Shown: positions 9,521 to 30,176 of the stretch, in pieces
How the letters are laid out: each line of letters starts with the position of its first letter
How positions within the stretch are numbered: the stretch's first letter is position 1
DNA from: Candidatus Uhrbacteria bacterium
GTDB lineage: Bacteria; Patescibacteriota; Patescibacteriia; SG8-24
DNA: 64,000 nucleotides
Direction of reading: 5' to 3'
Assembly: GCA_016929435.1 (NCBI GenBank)
Contig: JAFGIV010000022.1
Location: forward strand, 26,918-90,917
Position numbers and translations under genes: made by a program
Notes under the pieces: generated by a model
Told to the model about the DNA's origin: nothing
The model's database searches: none
Seen by the model: the letters and a program-made list of their open reading frames with translations, nothing else

Positions 9521-9598
9521 GGTCCCATCGTCTAGCCCGGTCCAGGACGTCTCCCTCTCACGGAGAAAACAGGGGTTCGAATCCCCTTGGGACTACCA
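9521..9598 (+). tRNA. tRNA-Glu (anticodon CUC), CCA encoded
   Basis: Hand-folded cloverleaf: acceptor GGTCCCA/TGGGACT; anticodon stem TCTCC/GGAGA with loop CTCTCAC; T arm AGGGG-TTCGAAT-CCCCT. Closely resembles bacterial tRNA-Glu (GTCCCCTTCGTCTAG...CAGGGGTTCGAATCCCCT...). Confidence 0.85.
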
Positions 9599-9602
9599 GA
9601 AG

Positions 9603-9632
9603 CACTCACCGAATGGTGGGTGTTTTTATTTT
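9603..9632 (+). terminator. rho-independent terminator after tRNA-Glu
   Basis: Stem cactcacc/ggtgggtg (one G-U) with loop gaat, then TTTTTATTTT. Confidence 0.6.
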
Positions 9633-9694
9633 GTTCGCCTTTAAAAAACCGTGATATAGTTTTTGCGTAATCTAAGGCCTGTTTTCTTGGCTAT

Positions 9695-10081
9695 ATGTCT
9701 ATATCCATAAAAAATATTTTTACCGCCCATAACAATCGAAGCGCTTCTTTTCGGAAAAAAGCTCTTGGTTATTTTCTTGTCTTTCTGGGTGCGTTTCCAG
9801 CGGTTGCATTTGCTTTAGCCTTCGTATTTTGTTTGTTCTTTCCGAATAATCACCTGATGAGGACATACATCATGGTCGATTTTGCTCTTGTCGAAGTCGT
9901 TGGCCCTATGGCATACGTGTTGCTATTGCTGTTGGCTTTGGCTGTGTTTTCTGCGCCGTTTTTCCTGTTGGTCTATATTGGCTTTCTTCTTGTTGGTTCG
10001 AAGAAAAAGAAACCGTCGGGCCAAGCCGTGCTGTTCGCGGTGTTTGCCTATTTTATCTGCTTTTCCGTTTTTTTTTTCTGA
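9695..10081 (+). CDS. small polytopic membrane protein (3-4 TM), AT-rich islet
   Basis: Hydrophobic segments; stop TGA overlaps the next ATG (TGATG), so the two are translationally coupled. Confidence 0.5.
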   Translation: MSISIKNIFTAHNNRSASFRKKALGYFLVFLGAFPAVAFALAFVFCLFFPNNHLMRTYIMVDFALVEVVGPMAYVLLLLLALAVFSAPFFLLVYIGFLLVGSKKKKPSGQAVLFAVFAYFICFSVFFF

Positions 10082-10823
10082 TGACTGAGAATCTGAATAC
10101 GAAATTTGACAGGAAAGTCTCTGGAATGAAAAGTCTTAATACTGGAATCGGGCATCCTATCTTGCCCGAATTTGATGTCATTAACATTTCCAAGTATGTG
10201 AAGTACGATGACATTGTCATTTATCAGGGAGATAGCTACGGGTACAAGTATACGGGTGATGCCTATAGCCAGATCGCCTTGGACCTTGACGTTGAAGGTC
10301 GTACTCTGTTTGTCAGGCGCTCTGAGATGGAGACCTATGTCGTACTCTGTTTGTCAGGCGCTCTGAGATGGAGACCTATTACGATGTCGAAATAGGTCAT
10401 GTGAAGAACAGGTATCCTTTATACCCGGCCGGCACCAAGAAACTGACCATCGAAATCACCGTTCCTGACCTTGACCGCATCATTGTTGAGGGTGGACATG
10501 TCAGCCTAGAGGGTTTGGAAGTGAATGACCTGCGGATTGACCTAAATAAGCGGTTCGTTGAGCTGAAAGGGGATTTGGTGGTGAGAGACGGTTTTGTCCT
10601 GAATGCTAAAGGGGGAGTGGTAGATTTGGAGGGTTCCGCAAAAAACCTAGAAATAAATTCCGGGGACTGTTGGATTGATATGGAGAATTTTACGGCTGAG
10701 ACCGCCTCAATAAACGCCGTTAACACCAGTCGTTTGAACGTTTACGTAACGGAAAACATGGAGGTCATTTCCGGGGTTAATTCTGGGATAGTCAAACATT
10801 TCGATTTCCATCAGGAAGAGTAA
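10081..10823 (+). pseudogene. putative-adhesin/beta-helix-like (DUF2807/DUF4097-like) gene split into two ORFs (10081..10395 and 10368..10823) by a frameshifting 41-bp tandem duplication
   Basis: Removing one 41-bp copy joins ...GRTLFVRRSEMETY to YDVEIGHVKNRYPLY... in frame, giving a single 233-aa protein. Confidence 0.6.
10298..10379 (+). repeat. perfect tandem duplication, 2 x 41 bp (gtcgtactctgtttgtcaggcgctctgagatggagacctat)
   Basis: Copy 10298-10338 is identical to copy 10339-10379. 41 is not a multiple of 3, so the duplication causes a frameshift. Confidence 0.95.
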
Positions 10824-10841
10824 CCGTGTTTGAAAAGACGA

Positions 10842-10953
10842 CGTTCCAGCACGAAAAGCACTACCACCCGCATCCAGCACGGGGAGGCTGTCTCCAATAG
10901 CTGGAGACGGCCTTTAAAGCCTCGAAACAAAAACACCCGAAAGGGTGTTTTTG
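10842..10953 (+). repeat. intergenic palindromic repeat element copy A (~110 bp: hairpin GGCTGTCTCCAatagcTGGAGACGGCC plus terminator CACCCgaaaGGGTG-T5)
   Basis: ~88% identical to copy B (13580..13691); the core palindrome also occurs at 12390..12428. Sits 19 nt after a stop codon. Confidence 0.85.
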
Positions 10954-11118
10954 TGTGCTGGGTTATTTTAATTGCGAAGGGGGGGTGCTTTATGGTATTG
11001 TGCAAATAACATATTTCAATCTAGAAAATAATTTTCGCTTCGTTAGTGGCGGTGCTTTATATCGTTATTCGAAGCTATGTCGAGGGAATTATTAATAATA
11101 TACTTAACCATTGCAAAT

Positions 11119-11724
11119 ATGAAAAATAATATTTTTATTAGAGTGATGTTGGCCACAATGGGCCTCTTTTCTCTATCTTTGTTCTTTTTGGTCTCCAATG
11201 TATACGCATATGTAGCAAGTGGATACACCCGCCCTTCAGGAAACGTAAGTTTTTACTTGCATGGCGCACTGGTGAATGTGGGGTGGCAGGGAGCGATAGA
11301 CAACGCTCGTAGCGAATGGAACGGGGCAGGATCTTCCTTTACGTTCTCTCAAAGCGGTACCGCTACAAGAAGCCCGAGCTTGGTTCAAAGCAGCACGACT
11401 GATGGGTATAACGACATCGGAGCACTTTCGTTGGACCTCAGTTATGTTGGATTTACATCTTCTGTTGCTAGTGGAACATCGATCATTGAAACGGACACAG
11501 CTTATAACTTGGAGAAGTCCTTTGATGTAAATCCGAATATTTATCAGTATGATGTTGAGAGTGTTGCTGTACATGAATTGGGCCACTGGTTACATTTGGA
11601 CGAAACACAGTCGTGGCGATGCTTTGCGTCTCCGCCAAGTATGTGCGGATCAGTTTCTATGGGGAGCACATATATGCGTTCTATAGAATCCGACGACATT
11701 AACGGCATTCAATATATCTATTAA
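11119..11724 (+). CDS. secreted metzincin-like zinc metalloprotease (snapalysin M7 / matrixin M10-like)
   Basis: Signal peptide MKNNIFIRVMLATMGLFSLSLFFLVSNVYA. Zinc motif VAVHELGHWLHLDE, a Cys pair, Met-turn candidate STYM and C-terminal DDINGIQYIY (matrixin DDIxGIQxLY signature). Confidence 0.6.
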   Translation: MKNNIFIRVMLATMGLFSLSLFFLVSNVYAYVASGYTRPSGNVSFYLHGALVNVGWQGAIDNARSEWNGAGSSFTFSQSGTATRSPSLVQSSTTDGYNDIGALSLDLSYVGFTSSVASGTSIIETDTAYNLEKSFDVNPNIYQYDVESVAVHELGHWLHLDETQSWRCFASPPSMCGSVSMGSTYMRSIESDDINGIQYIY

Positions 11725-11725
11725 T

Positions 11726-12337
11726 ATGAAGAAAACAACATTAATTGTAGCGGGATTGGCGGTTATAGTGTCTCTTACGACGCTGATGTACGGACTTGAT
11801 GGCAAAGACCAGGGAGGCAGCGCAACCCCACAGGGCGACGGAACGAGATTGTTGGTCAATGCCTTGCGTACAGAGCCTGATTTTAGGGTTGATACCCTTG
11901 ATTCCAGTATGATAGTTCAGGGGGAGGTGATTGCGGTCGATGAACTGTCTGACCAACCCTTAAGCCACAATACGCGTATAACCATTTCTGTCGACCAGTT
12001 GATTAAGGGGGATGATGTCAGCGAAACGATAGAGGTTTATGCGTTAGGTGGCGGCGGTGTAGAGGTTGTAGGAGATAACGAGAAAATAGGTCTTGTTGCA
12101 GGTGACGTCGGCATTTTCTTCCTTGGTTGGATGCCTGTGTCTGAAGGGTTCTACACATTTTTTGGCGGTTCAAGGGGCGTTTATGTTGAAAAGGACGCAC
12201 ATATTCGTAATTGGGGTGGAAAATCAATTAAAACTGATAGGTTTGTGCGCGAGATTGAGAAAGTGCTAGCTGACCCTGATGATAGAGAACATCAAAAGAC
12301 TTTGGGAGAGATGATCCGTGATAAGGAGTCTGAATAG
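11726..12337 (+). CDS. secreted partner protein P1 (signal peptide; paralogous to 12898..13527)
   Basis: MKKTTLIVAGLAVIVSLTTLMYG signal peptide; starts 1 nt after the protease stop. Shares the core ...V.G.VI......V.V...IKGD....TV...GG with the P2 paralog. Confidence 0.5.
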   Translation: MKKTTLIVAGLAVIVSLTTLMYGLDGKDQGGSATPQGDGTRLLVNALRTEPDFRVDTLDSSMIVQGEVIAVDELSDQPLSHNTRITISVDQLIKGDDVSETIEVYALGGGGVEVVGDNEKIGLVAGDVGIFFLGWMPVSEGFYTFFGGSRGVYVEKDAHIRNWGGKSIKTDRFVREIEKVLADPDDREHQKTLGEMIRDKESE

Positions 12338-12389
12338 AAGGTGTAAGAGGATACTACTTTTTCTTGGGACTACCACTTACATAAAGCGC

Positions 12390-12428
12390 GAGGAGGCCGT
12401 CTCCAATAGCTGGAGACGGCCGTTAGGG
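12390..12428 (+). repeat. repeat element copy C (core palindrome only, perfect 11-bp stem GGCCGTCTCCA atagc TGGAGACGGCC)
   Basis: Identical core to copy A. Lies immediately upstream of, and truncating, the second protease ORF; an in-frame TAG sits inside the repeat. Confidence 0.8.
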
Positions 12429-12430
12429 TC

Positions 12431-12895
12431 TTGTTGGTTACGCCTTTAGGTTCTGCGCTTGCTTGTTCCCAGGATTCATTGTTTTGGACTAGCGCCGTTG
12501 ATAGCGGGGAGATACGTTGGGGCGGTTCCACAAAGTATTCGTGGGAGTGGCAAGATGCGAGGGGTGCATGGAACCAGTTGAGTCCCGTTGATATTCTTCC
12601 TGATACAATATACACATATGAGGATTTAAAAATTTCGGACGTTGACAGCCATTACTTGGGATATTGGGGGGCATACATTCCTTCGTTGGGGACTGATGAT
12701 TTGGAGCTTAATGAATATTTTATGGATGGGGGCTCATACGGAAACAGGGCACATATCGTCTCTCATGAACTTGGCCGTGCTTTAGGTCTCGACCATGTTG
12801 ATGGTTGCGATCATGTGATGGATGATTATCAATATTGCACTTCAGTCACACCGTCATCAAACGATGAATGTAGCTACGATGAATTATGGAACTAG
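12431..12895 (+). CDS. degenerate paralog of the metzincin-like protease (5'-truncated, no signal peptide, zinc-motif H->R); possible pseudogene
   Basis: The ORF begins at TTG with no upstream ATG, and an in-frame stop lies in the repeat just upstream. Motif HIVSHELGRALGLDHVDGCDH is snapalysin-like HExGHxLGLxDH, but the second His is Arg (CGT where His would be CAT). Confidence 0.5.
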   Translation: MLVTPLGSALACSQDSLFWTSAVDSGEIRWGGSTKYSWEWQDARGAWNQLSPVDILPDTIYTYEDLKISDVDSHYLGYWGAYIPSLGTDDLELNEYFMDGGSYGNRAHIVSHELGRALGLDHVDGCDHVMDDYQYCTSVTPSSNDECSYDELWN

Positions 12896-12897
12896 GG

Positions 12898-13527
12898 ATG
12901 AAAGGCAAAATTATAGGCGGGGGGGTACTGCTTCTTGGCGTGCTGGGTATTGGTCTTCACGCTAATGTTTTGAGGGTGCCGGGTATTGTTAACCAGGTTG
13001 GCACTGTTGCAATCGCTAACTTTTCGGATGATGCCGAACTCGTAGGAGCGGCACATAACGTTTTTGTTGGTAAGGTAATAAAGAAACAGGACAGCTTTGT
13101 TGAGGGCAGGCTTGCCTTCACTCCTTATGAGGTTGTCGTCCTTTCCAATATCAAAGGTGATTTAGAAGGAACGGTAACGGTCCTTCAAAATGGGGGGTAT
13201 AAAGATGGGTTCTTGCAAATCTTGCATGATTCCGAATCGCCTGATGGGAGACTTCCATTTCCTGAAGTCAATCAATTATATCTGTTTTCAAGCAGACATA
13301 ATGTTGAGGCCGATGTCCACTACCTTCTTCCTACGATTCATGCTATGGAAAAGGTGAGTTCGAATACAGAATTTGGTGCCCAGGCTGACATTGCCGCCAT
13401 AACCAAGAGTGTTCGCATAGAAGAGCTGAGGGAAGCATATAAAAATGAGGTAGTTCCTTTGGCGGATAGGGAGCACGGTAGTGATTTCAATAGCTACAAT
13501 AAAACTGTACCGCAAAAGATTGAGTAG
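12898..13527 (+). CDS. secreted partner protein P2 (paralog of P1)
   Basis: Start chosen at MKGKIIGGGVLLLGVLGIGLHA (signal peptide), 3 nt after the upstream stop. Similar to P1. Confidence 0.5.
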   Translation: MKGKIIGGGVLLLGVLGIGLHANVLRVPGIVNQVGTVAIANFSDDAELVGAAHNVFVGKVIKKQDSFVEGRLAFTPYEVVVLSNIKGDLEGTVTVLQNGGYKDGFLQILHDSESPDGRLPFPEVNQLYLFSSRHNVEADVHYLLPTIHAMEKVSSNTEFGAQADIAAITKSVRIEELREAYKNEVVPLADREHGSDFNSYNKTVPQKIE

Positions 13528-13579
13528 GTTACGGGTTTGTGACAGAACTGATGTCGCACTGCCGTCTTGAAAAATCACC

Positions 13580-13691
13580 GCTCCAGCACGAAGGACACTG
13601 CCGCCCACATCCAGCACGGGGAGGTTGTCTCCACTATCTGTAAACGGCCGTTAAAGCCTCGAAACAAAAACACCCGAAAGGGTGTTTTTTG
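13580..13691 (+). repeat. repeat element copy B (~110 bp), at the islet boundary
   Basis: gctccagcacgaaggacactgccgcccacatccagcacggggaggttgtctcc...aaacacccgaaagggtgtttttt aligns to copy A; its palindrome is partly degraded. Confidence 0.85.
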
Positions 13692-13723
13692 CCTTTTTGC
13701 CGCGGTTTGTTCCAGGGTAGGCC

Positions 13724-24825: not shown

Positions 24826-25980
24826 CTAACGGACCTCCACCCTGATGTTGTCGGCCACGGTCGGCAGGCGGACGGCCCAAAACGGGGAAAGCCGGACCGA
24901 GGCCGAAGCGACTCCCTTGACCTGCTCCAGGTATTCGACGGCCGCCTCACCGGTCACGCCAGCCAGTTTTGCCGGGTCAAGGGCCGGGGAATCCTCGGAC
25001 AGGACGGCGTTGCCCATGGCCGATACCCGCAGGTTGGCCCGACCGCCGGCCAGGTCGGCCTTCTCCAGCTCAATGACCGTGGCCTTTTCCTCCATTCCCG
25101 CCAAACGGCGGCCGAAAGGAACGATTTCCCTGACCTTGGCCTCCGCCAAACGGTCGAGCTGGTTCCGGTCAAAGAATACCCCTACTGCCTTCACGGTAAC
25201 GGTCACCGAAAAACTCTCGGCCTCCTCCCCTACCGCCGGGGAGGAATGGCGGTCGGACATGACCGCCTGAATCGCCTCCCCGCTGACCGGCAGGCCACCG
25301 GCCAAAGCCTCCTTTCGCATCCGTTCGGTCAGGTCCCTGACCAGGTCGGATTTCAGCTGGGCAACCGCCACCTCAAAATCGGCGTTCCCGACCACCCTAA
25401 GGTCCCGAACGCCGCCGGAAACCGGCTCCACCGTTTCCACGGAAAACCTCTCCCGCAGGACCGGATTCAGTCCGGGAATGGTGAACGTCGAGTCTCCGAT
25501 GTCGTTCCCCGGACCGGTCCCGTCGGAAAATATGCCCACTTCCACCGAACCCAAGGCCGGAACCGTCACCTGATCCTTGATCCGAAACAGCATGCCGTTA
25601 CGGTCCAGCAGGCGGGTGGTGGCGACCAGTGTCTGGGGACTGGCCAGGCGACTTGTTATCCTGACCCGACCCTCGGCATGGCCTTCCACCCGGGAAACCA
25701 CGGCGGTCGGAAAGGTTCGGGTAGCGGTATCGGTCAGGGAAAGGACCGTCCCGGACAGTTCCCCGCCTCTCGGCTGCCGGGAAACGTCCGCAATGAACTC
25801 GGCCCGAATCTCCTCCTGCCGGGACAGGACTATGACCGTGGCCTTGGCCCAAACGACATAGAACACCAGGGCAGCCACGGCCAGGGTCATTATGACGAAA
25901 ACCGTGGCCAAACGCCGATATAGCGCCAGGTGGGTCGGCGGCAATTCCGAGAACGGCCGGTTTTGGGGCGGATAGTCCAT
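24826..25980 (-). CDS. membrane-anchored hypothetical protein
   Basis: Single N-terminal TM helix (LATVFVIMTLAVAALVFYVVWA) and a large extracytoplasmic domain. Confidence 0.45.
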   Translation of the reverse strand: MDYPPQNRPFSELPPTHLALYRRLATVFVIMTLAVAALVFYVVWAKATVIVLSRQEEIRAEFIADVSRQPRGGELSGTVLSLTDTATRTFPTAVVSRVEGHAEGRVRITSRLASPQTLVATTRLLDRNGMLFRIKDQVTVPALGSVEVGIFSDGTGPGNDIGDSTFTIPGLNPVLRERFSVETVEPVSGGVRDLRVVGNADFEVAVAQLKSDLVRDLTERMRKEALAGGLPVSGEAIQAVMSDRHSSPAVGEEAESFSVTVTVKAVGVFFDRNQLDRLAEAKVREIVPFGRRLAGMEEKATVIELEKADLAGGRANLRVSAMGNAVLSEDSPALDPAKLAGVTGEAAVEYLEQVKGVASASVRLSPFWAVRLPTVADNIRVEVR

Positions 25981-26100
25981 GACTGTAATATATCATAATC
26001 AGGGGCTTGGGGGTTGACACGGCGGCCGTTTCCTGATACCCTGAAAATCAAACAAGACGCCGGCGGACGAATGCGCCACCGGACGGAAAAGGACCTTGAA

Positions 26101-26343
26101 ATGAGAAAAAAAATTAGAAGACACAAGCGGAAGGCAAGAAATTGCCTCCCCCCGCCACTCCCTCCATATGACATCTATGGGGAATCAGAAAACTGCCTCC
26201 CGCCGCCCCCTCCATGCTGCTCATCTTCGTCAGACGATTCGTTATCGGACGGAAGGTTGTTCCCGAACTACGAGGTCGATGACCTCGACGATGTGAACGG
26301 GGAAAGAGGGAGAAAATCCCTTAACTTCGAGGAAAAAGAATGA
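26101..26343 (+). CDS. small basic/proline-rich protein (80 aa) in an AT-rich cassette
   Basis: RBS AAGGA 7 nt upstream of the ATG. MRKKIRRHKRKARNCLPPPLPPYDIYGESENCLPPPPPCCSSSSDD... with an acidic tail. The Pro codons derive from a GC-rich 25-28 bp direct repeat. Confidence 0.35.
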   Translation: MRKKIRRHKRKARNCLPPPLPPYDIYGESENCLPPPPPCCSSSSDDSLSDGRLFPNYEVDDLDDVNGERGRKSLNFEEKE

Positions 26344-26540
26344 ATCCGTTAATTAAAAAAATAATAGAGGACTTGTTGTCAAATGAGCCGATTTCGGCTC
26401 CCGTCACACCTGAAATGAAGGTGATGGTTCTGAAAGAGACCATCGCCTTCGCCGAAAAAATAATGGCGTTGGCGGAAGAAAGGATCAAAAAAATCCAAAA
26501 CGCCAACGCCAATATGGAAGCCCAATTATTGGGCAAATAA
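26340..26540 (+). CDS. small helical protein (66 aa), ATGA-overlapped with the upstream ORF
   Basis: MNPLIKKIIEDLLSNEPISAPVTPEMKVMVLKETIAFAEKIMALAEERIKKIQNANANMEAQLLGK, with translational coupling to the upstream ORF. Confidence 0.4.
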   Translation: MNPLIKKIIEDLLSNEPISAPVTPEMKVMVLKETIAFAEKIMALAEERIKKIQNANANMEAQLLGK

Positions 26541-26583
26541 ACCCGATTACTGGGCAAAAAACAACAACAAAGACGATTTCTCA

Positions 26584-26613
26584 AACGCCACTCCGGCTGG
26601 GGGTGGCGTTTAT
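26584..26613 (+). terminator. candidate terminator after the small two-gene cassette
   Basis: aacgccac...gtggcgtt 8-bp stem followed by TTTAT (weak U-tract). Confidence 0.3.
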
Positions 26614-26675
26614 GATTGCGGCGAGACCCCTAAATCCCCCTTCGGGGGACTTATGATGGTATGGGGGCGAAAACC

Positions 26676-29600
26676 CTATCCCCCCAACACCGCCCCCCGA
26701 CCGACCACTCCCTCCACCTCCCGAATGAAATCCCCGGAAAATGCGATCCGAAAACTGGTGTCGATGCTCTTTTCCGTTCCGTCCGGCTCTTGGGTCACCA
26801 GGACGACCCGCCGGTTTCCGGGATGTTCGGCCAAGACCCGCTTCATCTCCTCGGCGAAAACCTTGGTCATGGTGGCCGGTACGGCGATCCGGACGATTTC
26901 CGCCTCATGTGCCATGGCGTCGCCGCCGGACGGAGGGGCGCCATCCGGCGAATACATCGCCAACCGATCCCGAAGCTCCGCTGACGTCTCCGGATCGATC
27001 GGATAGAGACGCTCCAGGAGCAGGCTATCCTCCCCTTCCCGGTCCTGGTACTTGACCTCGGCGATGACCGCCCCCTCCTGGGCTATGATTTCCCGATACT
27101 CCTTATATGACCTGGGAAACACGACCATTTCGGACGGACCGCTCATGTCCTCCAGCCGGCAGAAGGCCATCTGATCCCCCTTCTTGGTGGTGATCTCGTG
27201 GACGTTGGTGATGTATCCGCCGACCCGCAGCAATCCCGGCTGCCTGAAGGACACCTCCTTGACCCGCTTCAGGGGCGTCAGCAGCCTGCCGAAAAATTCC
27301 GAATAGTCCTTGAAGGGGTGTTCGGAGACGTAAAGGCCCAAGAGCTCCTTCTCCCAAGCCAACCGCTCCCGCTTGGTGGCCGGAGGCACCTCCCTCATGG
27401 ACAGCTCGGCCTTCGGAACGTCCAGGGCCCCCTGCCCGAATATGCTGGACTGCCCGGACTCGGCGTCATGCCGCGCCTTCCTGTGGTAGGCCAGGATGGC
27501 GTCCATGCTGGCCAGCATCCGGTTCCGTTCGCCGAGCGAATCCATGGCTCCGGCCTTGATCAGGGACTCCAGGGCCCGCTTATTGAAGCCCTTGGTGCTG
27601 ACGCGGCCTGCCAGTTCGGCGATGCTCCCGAACGGGCCGTTTTTATTCCTCTCGTCCAGGATTTCGGCTATGGAATCCGATCCGAGATTCTTGATCGCCT
27701 TCAGCCCGAACCGGATCGTTCGGTCGTCGATGTACGTGAACTCGGCCAGGGAGGAATTGACGTCCGGAGGCAGGACGGCGATTCCCAGGCGGACACACTC
27801 CTGGACCGCATCGGCCACGGTCTCGATGTCCCCCGATTCGCAGGTCATGAGTGCGGCCATGTACTCGGCCGTATAGTTGGCCTTCATGTATCCGGTCCAA
27901 TAGGACACGACGGCATAGGAGGCGGAATGGGACTTGTTGAAGCCGTAGGCGGCAAACGGGACGATCAGCTCCCAGAGCTCGTCGGCCCGCTTCCGGGACA
28001 GCCCCCCGGCGACGCAACCGTCCTTGAACTTTGGCTCCTGCTTGGCCATTTCCGCCGGAATCTTCTTTCCCATCGCCTTCCGGAACTTGTCTGCCTCATC
28101 CCAGTTGTACCCGGCCAGGGTGATGGCCGACATCATGATGTCCTCCTGGTAGATGAGCATCCCCAGGGAGGCCTTCAGCAGGTCCTCCATCCTGGGGTCG
28201 ATCGGGACGATGAGCGACGGGTCATGCTTGCGGCGGATGTATTCCGGAATGTTGGCGATCGGACCCGGACGGTAAAGGGCAACCATGGCCGCCAAGTCAA
28301 AAATCGTCGTCGGACGGAGTTCCGTCAGGTACTTGGTCATCCCCGAGCTGGCGAACTGGAAGACACCCATGGTTTCGCCCCTGGCCAGCATCTCATAGGT
28401 CCTGGCGTCGTCGTACGGCAGGGATACCAAATCGATATCCACCCCCTTGGTGCCCCTGACCATATCCACCGCCTTTCCCAGGATCGAAAGGTTCCGTATC
28501 CCCAAAAAGTCCATCTTCAGGACCCCGGCATCCTCAACCGCATGCATGTCGAATTGGGTGATCAGCTTCTCCCCGCCCGCCTCCCTCTGTAGGGCCATGT
28601 ATTCGGTCAGCGGCCTGTCGGCGATGACCACGCCGGCGGCATGGACGGAAACGTGTCGGGCGCAACCCTCTATTTTCTGGGCCAATTCCAGGAGACGGGC
28701 GACCTGCGGATCGTCGTCGGACATCTCCTTCAGCTCGTTGCACTCCTCCAGGGCCCGGGCGATGGTCATGGCAAAACCCTGCGATCCCATGGGGATGGTC
28801 TTGGCGATCCGGTCGACGAACCCGAGCGGGTAGCCCAAGGCCCGACCAACGTCACGGACTGCCCCTCGGGCGGCCATGGTGCCGAAGGTACCGATCTGGG
28901 CGACATGGTCATGCCCGTACTTACCGGTGACATAGGCGATCACCTCATCCCGGCGGTCATCGGCGAAATCGGCATCGACATCGGGCGGCGAGGGCCGGAA
29001 AGGGTTCAGGAACCGCTCAAACGGCAGCTTGAAAAAAAGAGGGTCAATGGAGACGATGCCGACGGCATAGCCGACCAGCGAACCGGCCGCCGAACCGCGG
29101 GTATGGGAGACGATTCCCTGTCGCCTGGCCCAAATCATGTAATCGGCGACAACCAGGAAGTATTTGGAGTAGCCCTTCTGGTCCAATATCCCCAACTCGT
29201 AATCCAGCCGCTCCGTCTCATCCTCGGTCAGTTTCCGTCCCCGCTTGGACTCCAAGCCGCCGTAGGCCAACTCCCGCAGGTAGGAGGAGGGGTCGTGGCC
29301 TTCGGGAATGTCGAACCTGGGGAAGTTCCACTTGCCCAAATCCAGCCGCAGGTCACACCGCTCGGCGATCCTCACCGTATTTTCCACCGCCTCCGGACAG
29401 TCGGCGAAGGCCCTGGCCATGTGGTCCCCGTCCACGAACGAATAGTCCACGCCGGTCATCCGGTGGCGGTCGTCCTGGTCAACGGTCTTTCCGGCCCCGA
29501 TGCAGATCAGTAGGTCGTGCGGTTCGGAATCCTCCGGATTGAGGTAATGGACATCCTTAGTCGCCACCACGGGAATGTCCAGCCTTTTCCCCAACTCGAT

Positions 29601-30176
29601 AAGGTCGCGGTTCCGGGCCACCTGTTCGTCCATCTCCGGATGGTCCACCAGCTCCAGGAAAAAGTTTCCCTTACCCATGATACTCTCGTATTCCGCAGCC
29701 AACCGTTCGGCCCTTTCCCAGTCGTTCATCTCCAGGGACTTGCAGATGTCGCCCCGCAAGCCTCCGGAAAGGCATATCACCCCCTGGGCATGCCGCCCCA
29801 ACAGTTCCTTGTCAATCCGGGGCTTGTAGTAGAAGCCCTCAAGGTGTGCGGCGGTCGTCATTTTCAGGATATTCCTGTATCCAACCTCGTTTTCCGCCAA
29901 AAGGACCAGGTTGTGGGGCCGATCGTCGATCCGCGGCCGCCTGTCGGTCATCCGGTTCTGGGCCAGATAGGCCTCCACCCCGATGATCGGCTTGATTTCC
30001 TGCTTGAGGCATTCCTTGTAGAACTCAATGGCCCCATAAACCGCCCCGTAGTCGGTAATGGCCAAGGCCGTCATCCCCAACTCCTTTGCGCGCCTGACCG
30101 CATCCCTGACCTTCGGTAGTGCCTGAAGCAGGGAGTAGTGGGTATGGTTATGGAGATGGACGAAGGGGGCGGGCAT
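26676..30176 (-). CDS. dnaE: DNA polymerase III alpha subunit
   Basis: N-terminal PHP domain (HLHNHTHYSLLQA...) and polymerase core; 1166 aa. Confidence 0.9.
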   Translation of the reverse strand: MPAPFVHLHNHTHYSLLQALPKVRDAVRRAKELGMTALAITDYGAVYGAIEFYKECLKQEIKPIIGVEAYLAQNRMTDRRPRIDDRPHNLVLLAENEVGYRNILKMTTAAHLEGFYYKPRIDKELLGRHAQGVICLSGGLRGDICKSLEMNDWERAERLAAEYESIMGKGNFFLELVDHPEMDEQVARNRDLIELGKRLDIPVVATKDVHYLNPEDSEPHDLLICIGAGKTVDQDDRHRMTGVDYSFVDGDHMARAFADCPEAVENTVRIAERCDLRLDLGKWNFPRFDIPEGHDPSSYLRELAYGGLESKRGRKLTEDETERLDYELGILDQKGYSKYFLVVADYMIWARRQGIVSHTRGSAAGSLVGYAVGIVSIDPLFFKLPFERFLNPFRPSPPDVDADFADDRRDEVIAYVTGKYGHDHVAQIGTFGTMAARGAVRDVGRALGYPLGFVDRIAKTIPMGSQGFAMTIARALEECNELKEMSDDDPQVARLLELAQKIEGCARHVSVHAAGVVIADRPLTEYMALQREAGGEKLITQFDMHAVEDAGVLKMDFLGIRNLSILGKAVDMVRGTKGVDIDLVSLPYDDARTYEMLARGETMGVFQFASSGMTKYLTELRPTTIFDLAAMVALYRPGPIANIPEYIRRKHDPSLIVPIDPRMEDLLKASLGMLIYQEDIMMSAITLAGYNWDEADKFRKAMGKKIPAEMAKQEPKFKDGCVAGGLSRKRADELWELIVPFAAYGFNKSHSASYAVVSYWTGYMKANYTAEYMAALMTCESGDIETVADAVQECVRLGIAVLPPDVNSSLAEFTYIDDRTIRFGLKAIKNLGSDSIAEILDERNKNGPFGSIAELAGRVSTKGFNKRALESLIKAGAMDSLGERNRMLASMDAILAYHRKARHDAESGQSSIFGQGALDVPKAELSMREVPPATKRERLAWEKELLGLYVSEHPFKDYSEFFGRLLTPLKRVKEVSFRQPGLLRVGGYITNVHEITTKKGDQMAFCRLEDMSGPSEMVVFPRSYKEYREIIAQEGAVIAEVKYQDREGEDSLLLERLYPIDPETSAELRDRLAMYSPDGAPPSGGDAMAHEAEIVRIAVPATMTKVFAEEMKRVLAEHPGNRRVVLVTQEPDGTEKSIDTSFRIAFSGDFIREVEGVVGRGAVLGG

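What the first reader, a model, noticed from the sequence alone, without database searches (positions are those of the whole stretch)
26019..26615. AT-rich two-gene micro-cassette encoding a basic/proline-rich peptide and a small helical protein
Sandwiched between convergent housekeeping genes, and with lower GC than its surroundings, lies a candidate promoter TTGACA-N17-TACCCT (26019-26047). It is followed by ORFs of 80 aa and 66 aa overlapping by ATGA. The first is MRKKIRRHKRKAR, then two NCLPPP(L/P)PP units generated by a 25-28-bp GC-rich direct repeat (aattgcctccccccgccactccctccat / aactgcctcccgccgccccctccat), then an acidic tail. The second is an amphipathic helical protein. No known family fits. 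The architecture, a small coupled pair with foreign composition, is typical of toxin-antitoxin or effector/chaperone pairs.
Basis: partly seen in the sequence, partly recalled or inferred. Interest (0 to 1): 0.5.

Follow-up and report, generated by a model that had tools for sequence, protein, structure and literature searches.

The report
Fast-evolving small-protein operon beside dnaE
This is a real, self-contained two-gene mini-operon for small proteins, found only in a narrow group of uncultured Uhrbacteria; its promoter and terminator are conserved but its coding part changes fast, its function is unknown, and nothing supports the toxin-antitoxin idea.

Summary
The sequence features are there. 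ORF1 (26101-26343, 80 aa) and ORF2 (26340-26540, 66 aa) overlap by ATGA. ORF1 holds a real C-rich direct repeat. The promoter TTGACA-N17-TACCCT lies at 26014-26042, 5 nt off the stated position.

The context was misread. Both neighbours, dnaE and a conserved 384-aa membrane protein (P384), are on the minus strand, so they are not convergent. The 695-bp gap has the GC content of ordinary gaps in this genome.

Open frames of this size are common by chance. The evidence that this is a unit comes from elsewhere:
- The promoter type is 26-fold enriched in the window.
- A strong hairpin terminator follows ORF2.
- Promoter, 5'UTR, ORF1 start and terminator are conserved at the same site in two related metagenomic contigs.

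ORF2 has a significant syntenic homologue (112 aa) in one of those contigs and a probable one in the other. It matches nothing else among billions of proteins. ORF1 is predicted to be disordered and is not annotated. Only its start and its acidic C-terminal tail are conserved, and its basic, proline-rich half is a local expansion.

The ORF2 homologue occurs without ORF1, and no toxin, antitoxin or defence family matches. The best reading is a clade-restricted accessory small-protein operon of unknown function.

The parts
25987..25995 (-). Extended -10 element (TGATATATT) of the neighbouring 384-aa gene. It lies 6 nt before that gene's ATG (25980..25978), which implies a leaderless mRNA. It bounds the cassette on its upstream side.
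   Evidence: Read. The same TGATATATT-N6-ATG geometry occurs in relative L082, and TGATATATT is also present in L165. The leaderless start is inferred from the geometry.
26014..26042 (+). Cassette promoter: TTGACA (26014-26019), 17-nt spacer, TG-extended -10 TACCCT (26037-26042). The expected transcription start is near 26049.
   Evidence: The pattern TTGACA-N16-18-TANNNT occurs 9 times in the window against 0.34 expected, and 8 of the 9 lie in intergenic gaps. It is conserved in relatives as TTGACA-N17-TAGCCT (L162), TTGACA-N17-TATATT (L165) and TTGACC-N17-TAATAT (L167). The generic scanner did not call it, because the -10 matches only 3 of 6.
26043..26100 (+). 5' leader with a Shine-Dalgarno-like AAGGA (26089-26093) 7 nt before the ORF1 ATG. 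It also contains a non-conserved in-frame ATG at 26071.
   Evidence: The stretch from the promoter through the leader to the ATG is 91/121 (75%) identical to L162. The adjacent 384-aa gene is 73% identical as DNA. The ATG at 26101 and the AAGGA align with L162; the ATG at 26071 does not. SD duplex energy is -5.5 kcal/mol.
26101..26343 (+). ORF1, 80 aa. It has a basic N-terminus, two NCLPPP(L)PP repeats and an acidic tail, and is predicted to be disordered. It is probably translated, but this is uncertain.
   Evidence: no secondary structure, pTM 0.17. It is not annotated by PGAP and is absent from the 15-billion-protein collection in any start form. The codon score is -0.31 per codon, no better than the other frames. 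In favour: the start is conserved with L162. A stop-anchored comparison of the last 8 residues (SLNFEEKE against ELNFDEED) gives P = 5e-5. The differences between the two repeat copies are synonymous third-position changes plus an in-frame 3-nt indel.
26139..26215 (+). The two C-rich direct repeat copies (26139-26167 and 26190-26215) that encode the polyproline units. This is a lineage-specific expansion inside ORF1.
   Evidence: 1 of 150 shuffles reaches the score. The counterpart ORF in L162 is 39 aa and lacks this region.
26329..26333 (+). GAGGA ribosome-binding site of ORF2. It lies inside the 3' end of ORF1, 6 nt before the ATG of the ATGA overlap.
   Evidence: -5.9 kcal/mol. L162 has GAGGAGG before its second ORF.
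26340..26540 (+). ORF2, 66 aa: a helical small protein annotated as hypothetical protein JW899_04385 (MBN1585574.1). This is the best-supported gene of the pair.
   Evidence: - The codon score of +0.25 per codon is the best of six frames; host genes score 0.16-0.59.
- It is called by PGAP and in a Logan assembly.
- AlphaFold gives pLDDT 87 with two helices.
- Against the syntenic 112-aa ORF of L165, the Smith-Waterman score is 67 against 27.7 +/- 5.2 in shuffles (0 of 3000). That ORF is also the only phmmer hit among 40,592 six-frame segments, at E = 0.009.
- An ORF2+L165 profile against the L162 counterpart gives hhalign P = 0.004.
26518..26559 (+). 21-nt tandem duplication spanning the ORF2 stop codon. 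The copies read AQLLGK-stop and TRLLGKK.
   Evidence: 81% identity; 17/20 matches is reached in 1.3% of shuffles. The L165 homologue ends ...EARLLGKKNI.
26583..26618 (+). Intrinsic-terminator-like hairpin: a 12-bp stem (AAACGCCACUCC / GGGGUGGCGUUU), a 5-nt loop and a tail reading GUUUAUGAUUG. It lies 43 nt after the ORF2 stop.
   Evidence: -24.9 kcal/mol, z = -4.3. Equivalent hairpins with U-rich tails follow the cassettes of L162 (z = -4.0) and L165 (z = -4.9). Their stem sequences differ. The generic scanner missed it because of its tail rule.
26635..26649 (-). Second hairpin (UCCCCC UUC GGGGGA) next to the dnaE stop codon. It is the likely dnaE terminator and is not part of the cassette proper.
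   Evidence: region z = -4.0 and -3.2.

Best explanation
The locus is an autonomous, clade-restricted accessory operon for two small proteins. It sits antisense between dnaE and the conserved gene that normally follows dnaE directly.

Proposed mechanism:
1. A sigma-70-type promoter (26014-26042) starts a transcript of about 570 nt near 26049.
2. Ribosomes start ORF1 at AAGGA-N7-ATG (26101).
3. The ORF1 stop overlaps the ORF2 start (ATGA), and a GAGGA site lies 6 nt upstream. ORF2 is therefore made by coupled re-initiation and/or direct initiation.
4. A 12-bp hairpin with a U-rich tail (26583-26618) ends the transcript before it runs into dnaE.

Products:
- ORF2 is a genuine, fast-evolving 66-aa helical hairpin or coiled-coil protein. 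It has no catalytic features, so it most likely acts by binding another macromolecule.
- ORF1 is a disordered small protein with opposite charges at its two ends. Its conserved part is the acidic C-terminal tail. Its basic, polyproline half arose here by a 48-nt duplication and should make its translation depend on EF-P.

Shown: the ORFs, the repeat, enrichment and conservation of the promoter, conservation of the terminator, homology of ORF2 to syntenic ORFs, and absence from more distant relatives.
Inferred: transcription, translational coupling, translation of ORF1, a binding rather than enzymatic role, and EF-P dependence.
The cellular function is unknown. It is not a recognisable toxin-antitoxin system.
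For: Promoter:
- The pattern occurs 9 times against 0.34 expected, with 8 of 9 in gaps. The other eight promoters have an ORF start 1-52 nt downstream, and here the ATGs lie 28 and 58 nt downstream.
- Promoter plus leader is 75% identical to L162, against 73% for the neighbouring gene. The ORF bodies cannot be aligned as DNA.

Terminator:
- Hairpins are conserved in three genomes with different stem sequences.

ORF2:
- Its frame has the best codon score of six frames, +0.25.
- It has a PGAP call.
- It is homologous to the L165 112-aa ORF (z about 7.5, 0 of 3000 shuffles; E = 0.009 as the sole hit in 40,592 segments), and that ORF has a strong GGAGG site.
- The hhalign comparison to the L162 counterpart gives P = 0.004.

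ORF1:
- The start is conserved, the C-terminal tail is conserved (P = 5e-5), and the two repeat copies differ only by synonymous changes and an in-frame indel.

Synteny:
- dnaE and the 384-aa gene are adjacent in most relatives: a 24-bp gap in L002 and 88-155 bp in L082, L163/L164, L168/L169 and L170.
- An antisense unit with the same promoter type sits at this site in L162, L165 and L167. Only L162 and L165 show homology to the window's ORFs.
Against: - ORF1 has no codon-usage support, is not called by PGAP or by the Logan gene caller, is low-complexity and is predicted to be disordered.
- Its whole-length similarity to the L162 39-aa ORF is not significant (p = 0.12).
- The conserved tail of ORF1 overlaps the ribosome-binding region of ORF2, so RNA-level constraint could explain part of that conservation.
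- L165 lacks ORF1 altogether.
- L162 comes from a frameshift-ridden assembly, so its second ORF had to be reconstructed by hand across a frameshift.
- ORFs of this length arise by chance in this gap; the pair has p of about 0.04.
- There are no expression data of any kind.
- Only three or four genomes carry the unit, so the comparative evidence is thin.
Confidence: 0.6

Rival explanations
1. Only ORF2 is a functional gene. The ORF1 stretch is a long 5' leader or a regulatory upstream ORF. Its peptide sequence would be largely irrelevant. Its translation, slowed at PPPLPP and PPPPP and therefore sensitive to EF-P, would merely set ORF2 output through the ATGA coupling.
For: ORF1 is not called by two gene callers and is absent from all collections. 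Its codon score is no better than the other frames. It is predicted to be disordered. The L165 homologue of ORF2 works without any ORF1. The ORF1 counterpart in L162 is half the size and dissimilar except at its ends. The conserved tail coincides with the ORF2 ribosome-binding region.
Against: The start codon and SD are conserved with L162. The repeat copies differ only by synonymous changes and an in-frame indel. The tail motif differs mostly at third codon positions. No Rfam element and no unusual structure is found in the leader (z = -1.55).
Confidence: 0.25
2. A type II toxin-antitoxin pair, or an effector/chaperone pair. The acidic, disordered ORF1 would neutralise a helical toxin encoded by ORF2.
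For: There are two small co-directional genes overlapping by ATGA behind one promoter. The upstream product is acidic and disordered. The sequences evolve fast, the distribution among relatives is patchy, and the GC content does not track the host.
Against: - No match to any toxin, antitoxin or defence profile, and no structural match (best E = 2.9).
- ORF1 has no DNA-binding fold.
- The ORF2 homologue occurs without a partner in L165.
- The family is confined to a few close relatives among 1.84 and 5.8 billion proteins searched.
- There are no other copies in the window.
- ORF2 is neither basic nor hydrophobic (pI 6.2).
Confidence: 0.07
3. A split gene. ORF1's C-terminal part and ORF2 would descend from one ancestral ORF like the 112-aa protein of L165, broken here into two overlapping frames. 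ORF1 would then be partly a relic.
For: The L165 protein carries a 14-residue N-terminal extension (MNKINSYEVELATG) before the residue that aligns with ORF2 Met1. It contains SYEVE, which resembles NYEVD in ORF1 and NYV in the L162 small ORF.
Against: The resemblance is a 4-5 residue motif with no statistical support. The window and L162 both keep two separate ORFs, each with its own ribosome-binding site.
Confidence: 0.1
4. A non-coding spacer holding only the dnaE terminator and the promoter of the 384-aa gene, with chance ORFs. Alternatively, the real gene is the hydrophobic 87-aa ORF on the minus strand (26584..26321).
For: ORFs of at least 66 or 80 aa arise in 63% and 42% of shuffles. The gap GC is typical of gaps. 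The antisense ORF is open and shares wobble positions with ORF2.
Against: ORF2 has a significant syntenic protein homologue. A + strand promoter and terminator are conserved. The minus-strand frame scores lower (0.07 against 0.25), starts with TTG inside the hairpin and has no ribosome-binding site. The promoter of the 384-aa gene needs only about 20 nt.
Confidence: 0.04

Closest known systems
Phage 'morons' and chromosomal genomic islets (a unit of promoter, ORF and terminator inserted between two genes that are adjacent in relatives; comparison from my own knowledge of the concept)
   Same: It has its own promoter and its own terminator, and its composition does not track the host. It is inserted between dnaE and the 384-aa gene, which are 24-155 bp apart in L002, L082, L163, L168 and L170. 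Its presence among close relatives is patchy.
   Different: It is not in a prophage: the flanks are core genes. No integrase, att repeat or phage hit was found. There are two ORFs, not one.
Type II toxin-antitoxin operons
   Same: Two small co-directional genes with a 4-nt overlap behind one promoter, and an acidic, disordered upstream product.
   Different: There is no toxin or antitoxin domain, and no DNA-binding fold in the upstream product. The downstream homologue occurs alone in L165. The family is not spread across taxa, and toxicity is untested.
Taxonomically restricted (orphan) small-protein genes, including young genes built by local duplication
   Same: No homologues exist outside a few close relatives among billions of proteins. 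The products are short, simple helices or disordered. Codon usage is weak. The unit is built partly from local duplications (48-nt and 21-nt), and its GC is close to that of intergenic DNA.
   Different: The promoter, start and terminator are conserved across genomes whose neighbouring gene is only 65-66% identical. The unit is therefore not brand new, and de novo origin was not shown.
Translated leader peptides or upstream ORFs with ribosome-stalling polyproline motifs (EF-P dependent; from my own knowledge)
   Same: An upstream ORF with PPPLPP and PPPPP overlaps the start of the downstream gene.
   Different: No alternative RNA structure links stalling to ORF2 expression. The polyproline part is absent from the L162 counterpart. 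At 80 aa, ORF1 is long for a leader peptide.

Membership tests
Type II toxin-antitoxin system | Two small adjacent co-directional genes, often overlapping, in one operon | tested here: met
   ATGA overlap, one promoter and one terminator.
Type II toxin-antitoxin system | Toxin belongs to a recognised toxin fold or superfamily | tested here: not met
   Pfam, NCBIfam, PADLOC and PHROGs give nothing above noise. PDB sequence and fold searches give nothing.
Type II toxin-antitoxin system | Antitoxin has a DNA-binding domain (RHH, HTH, AbrB or Phd type) plus a toxin-binding region | tested here: not met
   ORF1 has no domain hit and no predicted secondary structure.
Type II toxin-antitoxin system | Toxin gene is always accompanied by its antitoxin gene | tested here: not met
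   The L165 homologue of ORF2 follows its promoter and GGAGG site directly, with no ORF1-like gene.
Type II toxin-antitoxin system | Toxicity of one product and its neutralisation by the other | not testable with these tools
   This needs expression assays.
Secretion effector/chaperone pair | A dedicated secretion machinery is encoded in the genome, and the chaperone has the characteristic small acidic alpha/beta fold | tested here: inconclusive
   Neither product has a domain hit. ORF2 is all-helical and ORF1 is disordered. The other genes of the window were not annotated for secretion machinery, and the rest of the genome was not available.
Moron-like autonomous insertion | Own promoter and terminator flanking the ORF(s), inserted between genes that are adjacent in relatives | tested here: met
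Moron-like autonomous insertion | Located within a prophage or mobile element | tested here: not met
   The flanks are dnaE and a conserved core gene. No viral, phage or plasmid similarity was found. No flanking repeats bound the insert.
RiPP precursor peptide | Precursor with repeated cores encoded next to modifying enzymes | tested here: not met
   The neighbours are dnaE, the 384-aa membrane protein and an RNase H-like protein.
Any Rfam RNA family (riboswitch, leader or sRNA) | Covariance-model match at or near the gathering score | tested here: not met
   Only two tRNAs in the window reach the gathering score. The best local hits are 15-21 bits against cut-offs of 34-117 bits.

The most novel reading that the evidence does not exclude
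The site between dnaE and the 384-aa gene is a hypervariable cassette locus in this Uhrbacteria clade. A conserved 'shell' of promoter, leader, start codon and terminator would be kept, while the small-protein coding content inside it is rapidly diversified or exchanged between lineages. Supporting observations: the ORF bodies cannot be aligned although the shell is 75% identical; ORF lengths are 66, about 95 and 112 aa (possibly also the 229-aa ORF of L167, whose homology is not supported); and cassette GC is decoupled from host GC in both directions. Such a pattern is typical of conflict systems such as immunity, anti-phage or host-interaction factors. If so, this would be a new small-protein conflict module, possibly toxin/antidote-like in logic although unrelated to known TA families.
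Probability: 0.12. Interest if true: 0.55.

Novelty: new member of a known kind. Interest (0 to 1): 0.27.

Why it matters
Candidate-phyla-radiation bacteria carry many unannotated small genes, and this is a well-delimited example. It has a conserved promoter and terminator around fast-changing small proteins, and it breaks an otherwise conserved dnaE-neighbour gene pair. It shows that an apparent singleton hypothetical protein has syntenic homologues that database searches miss. It also shows that an unannotated upstream ORF may be real. Without a function, the wider significance is modest. It would rise if the locus proved to be a diversifying conflict module.

Tried and rejected
- Large protein searches. 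ORF2 finds only itself among 5.8 billion clusters and among 1.84 billion HMMER representatives. ORF1 finds nothing, not even itself.
- Family and structure libraries. Pfam, NCBIfam, PADLOC and PHROGs give only noise. PDB by sequence and by Foldseek gives nothing. The afdb50 library was unavailable.
- Rfam. Nothing at the gathering score and nothing at relaxed thresholds.
- Mobile-element origin. No hits in IMG/VR, phage or plasmid collections. No bounding direct or inverted repeats. No paralogue or repeat of the spacer elsewhere in the window.
- Metagenome scan with the 384-aa protein found nothing. The scan with DnaE gave L082, which lacks the cassette.
- L167. Its 229-aa antisense ORF at the same site has only marginal similarity: hhalign P = 0.17, and Smith-Waterman p = 0.04 against L165 and p = 0.34 against ORF2. 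I do not count it as a family member.
- Origin of the ORF1 repeat from the dnaE 3' end. CCACTCCCTCCA at 26705 is the best match in the window, but it scores only 27 against 24 for the next best, so this is suggestive only.
- DGR-type variation. I considered and rejected it, because the differences between the repeat copies are not adenine-specific. No reverse-transcriptase search was run.
- Literature. Searches for the sample accession and for comparable loci returned nothing useful.

Full report
**Source and layout.** The window comes from a Candidatus Uhrbacteria MAG. ORF2 is the deposited hypothetical protein JW899_04385 (MBN1585574.1). The consecutive accessions MBN1585573 and MBN1585575 are the 384-aa protein (here P384) and DnaE, so PGAP annotated nothing for ORF1. 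Both neighbours are on the minus strand: dnaE at 30176..26676 and P384 at 25980..24826. The finding therefore sits antisense in a 695-bp gap between two co-directional genes, not between convergent ones.

**What the sequence shows.**
- ORF1 (26101-26343, 80 aa) and ORF2 (26340-26540, 66 aa) overlap by ATGA.
- ORF1 is net +9 in its first 14 residues and net -7 in its last 41. It has 11 prolines and 4 cysteines.
- The NCLPPP units come from a direct repeat at 26139-26167 and 26190-26215. The gapped score is 33, against 21.7 +/- 2.7 in shuffles (1 of 150).
- In the ORF1 frame, the copies differ by AAT/AAC, CCC/CCG and CCA/CCC, all synonymous third positions, plus one 3-nt indel. The spacing is 48 nt.
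- A 21-nt tandem duplication (26518-26538 and 26539-26559) spans the ORF2 stop.

**Is it more than chance?**
- The ORFs alone are not. In 5000 dinucleotide shuffles of the gap, an ATG ORF of at least 66 aa occurs in 63% and one of at least 80 aa in 42%. An adjacent same-strand pair occurs in 4%.
- The low GC is not a strong signal either. The gap is 0.489 GC, against a median of 0.52 (range 0.44-0.62) for the other gaps. Only ORF2 itself (0.413) is low.
- I scored codon usage against 29 host genes, which give 0.16-0.59 bits per codon. ORF2 scores +0.25, the best of its six frames. ORF1 scores -0.31, no better than its other frames.

**Signals of a transcription unit.**
- The promoter TTGACA-N17-(TG)-TACCCT lies at 26014-26042.
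- The pattern TTGACA-N16-18-TANNNT occurs 9 times in the window against 0.34 expected. Eight of the nine lie in gaps, which cover about 19% of the window.
- For the other eight promoters, an ORF starts 1-52 nt after the -10 element. Here ATGs follow at 28 nt (26071) and 58 nt (26101), whereas ORF2 lies 297 nt away.
- A 12-bp hairpin with a tail reading GUUUAUGAUUG lies 43 nt after the ORF2 stop (-24.9 kcal/mol, z = -4.3).
- A second hairpin at 26635-26649 abuts the dnaE stop.
- P384 has its own extended -10 element, TGATATATT, 6 nt before its ATG. The same geometry occurs in L082, which implies a leaderless mRNA. Most of the gap is therefore not needed for the P384 promoter.

**Relatives without the cassette.** DnaE relatives in species-representative genomes are at most 50% identical. 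The DnaE scan of metagenome contigs added L082 (DnaE 62%, P384 49%). P384 belongs to a family that is widespread in Patescibacteria, with 249 hits, some carrying a Baseplate_J match. In many of these, dnaE is followed directly by the P384 gene:

| Locus | Gap between dnaE and the P384 gene |
|---|---|
| L002 | 24 bp |
| L082 | 155 bp |
| L163/L164 | 88 bp |
| L168/L169, L170 | about 100 bp |

Other lineages hold unrelated genes in the gap: L027 has an antisense 444-aa ORF and L084 a sense 164-aa ORF. The site is a variable spot, and the cassette is an insertion relative to the common arrangement.

**Relatives with the cassette.** The closest P384 relatives are L162 (66%), L165 (65%) and L167 (60%). 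All three carry an antisense unit divergent from P384, with the same promoter type:
- L162: TTGACA-N17-TAGCCT
- L165: TTGACA-N17-TATATT
- L167: TTGACC-N17-TAATAT

*Window against L162.*
- The stretch from the P384 start through the promoter and leader to the ORF1 ATG is 91/121 (75%) identical. The P384 gene is 73% identical as DNA. The ATG at 26101 and the AAGGA site are aligned.
- The ORF bodies cannot be aligned as DNA.
- The first ORF in L162 is a 39-aa acidic peptide that lacks the basic and polyproline part.
- Whole-length similarity to ORF1 is not significant (p = 0.12).
- The last eight residues, anchored on the stop codon (SLNFEEKE against ELNFDEED), score far above shuffles (P = 5e-5).
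- This stretch overlaps the ORF2 ribosome-binding site, so part of its conservation may act at the RNA level.

*ORF2 homologues.*
- L165 has a single 112-aa ORF behind a strong GGAGG site and no ORF1.
- ORF2 aligns with it end to end. Shared features are M-x-P at the start, I..LL..E..P, LA..R....QNAN and EA.LLGK at the end.
- The Smith-Waterman score is 67, against 27.7 +/- 5.2 in shuffles (0 of 3000). It is the only phmmer hit among 40,592 six-frame segments of all fetched loci, at E = 0.009.
- L162 comes from an assembly with many frameshifts; its dnaE and RNR genes are fragmented. Its second ORF had to be joined across a frameshift. The ORF2+L165 profile matches the joined sequence collinearly, at hhalign P = 0.004.
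- The 229-aa ORF of L167 is only marginally similar.

*Terminators and composition.*
- All three cassettes end in a 12-13-bp hairpin with a U-rich tail. The stem sequences differ but the pairing is kept.
- Cassette GC does not follow host GC:

| Genome | P384 gene GC | Cassette GC |
|---|---|---|
| Window | 0.64 | ORF2 0.41 |
| L165 | 0.49 (GC3 0.49) | ORF2-like 0.575 (GC3 0.73) |
| L162 | 0.68 | 0.53-0.57 |

**Products.** AlphaFold in single-sequence mode gives ORF2 two helices (residues 3-14 and 24-65) at pLDDT 87. It gives ORF1 no secondary structure, with pTM 0.17. No solved structure or family matches either product.

**Interpretation.**
- The unit is a real, narrowly distributed small-protein operon with a conserved regulatory shell and rapidly diverging coding content.
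- ORF2 is a gene.
- ORF1 is probably translated, given its conserved start, its conserved tail, and repeat differences that respect its frame. Its N-terminal half is a recent local expansion, and a purely regulatory upstream ORF cannot be excluded.
- The toxin-antitoxin reading fails three of the four testable defining features. Most tellingly, the ORF2 homologue occurs without a partner.
- The function remains unknown. The products have no catalytic features, so a binding role is the most likely.
- The rapid divergence, patchy distribution and decoupled GC leave room for a conflict-related module, at about 12% probability.

**Limits.**
- There are no expression data.
- Only three or four genomes carry the unit, and one of them is error-prone.
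- My quotas for large-scale profile searches were exhausted before the L165 and L162 homologues were recognised, so the true extent of the family is untested.

Noticed in passing
window 9521-13700: A low-GC island (0.40-0.48 against about 0.61) starts right after tRNA-Glu(CTC) at 9521-9598. It encodes several secreted-looking proteins, two of which carry HExxH zinc-protease motifs (ORFs 11077-11724 and 12431-12895). It is probably an integrated or horizontally acquired segment.
   Followed up: partly
window 10830-10952, 12369-12425, 13567-13689: Three copies (84-86% identical) of a 57-123-nt intergenic element lie inside the island. They contain an inverted repeat (GGCCGTCTCCA...TGGAGACGGCC). 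This could be a terminator, a REP-like element or an unknown RNA motif. No Rfam hit reaches the gathering score.
   Followed up: no
window 10298-10379: A perfect 41-nt tandem duplication (GTCGTACTCTGTTTGTCAGGCGCTCTGAGATGGAGACCTAT, two copies) lies at the junction of two island ORFs. It is either very recent or an assembly artefact.
   Followed up: no
window 966, 4760, 5862, 6199, 8109, 20456, 26014, 55987, 62212: A strong consensus promoter, TTGACA-N16-18-TAnnnT (often with a TG extension), occurs 9 times against 0.34 expected. Several copies (966, 6199, 8109, 20456, 55987) precede only short unannotated ORFs of 50-113 aa. These may be further small genes or RNAs.
   Followed up: partly
window 25978-25995 (minus strand); L082 3240-3260; L165 about 1262-1292: In the window and in L082 the conserved 384-aa Baseplate_J-like membrane protein gene has TGATATATT 6 nt before its ATG. 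This suggests a leaderless mRNA. L165 keeps TGATATATT but 17 nt before the ATG.
   Followed up: partly
window 26690-26717 against 26139-26167: The 3' end of dnaE (antisense strand) carries CCACTCCCTCCA and neighbouring C-runs that resemble the ORF1 repeat unit. It is the best match in the window but only slightly above background (27 against 24). It may be the source of the repeat.
   Followed up: partly
window 26321-26584 (minus strand): An 87-aa hydrophobic ORF lies antisense to ORF2 and shares its wobble positions. It has a lower codon score (0.07), a TTG start inside the hairpin and no ribosome-binding site. It is probably a shadow frame.
   Followed up: yes
L165 590-660 (minus strand): A second promoter, TTGACA-aactcgctaaaatatgc-TATAGT, lies directly after the L165 cassette. 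Its spacer is almost the same as that of the cassette promoter (aaacggtcaaaatatgc). It drives an unrelated gene of about 170 aa, and the two promoters look like duplicates.
   Followed up: no
L162 (ENA ERZ25039513 contig_57698): dnaE and the class II ribonucleotide reductase are each split into several ORFs. The contig therefore has many frameshift errors or pseudogenes, and ORF boundaries in it are unreliable.
   Followed up: partly
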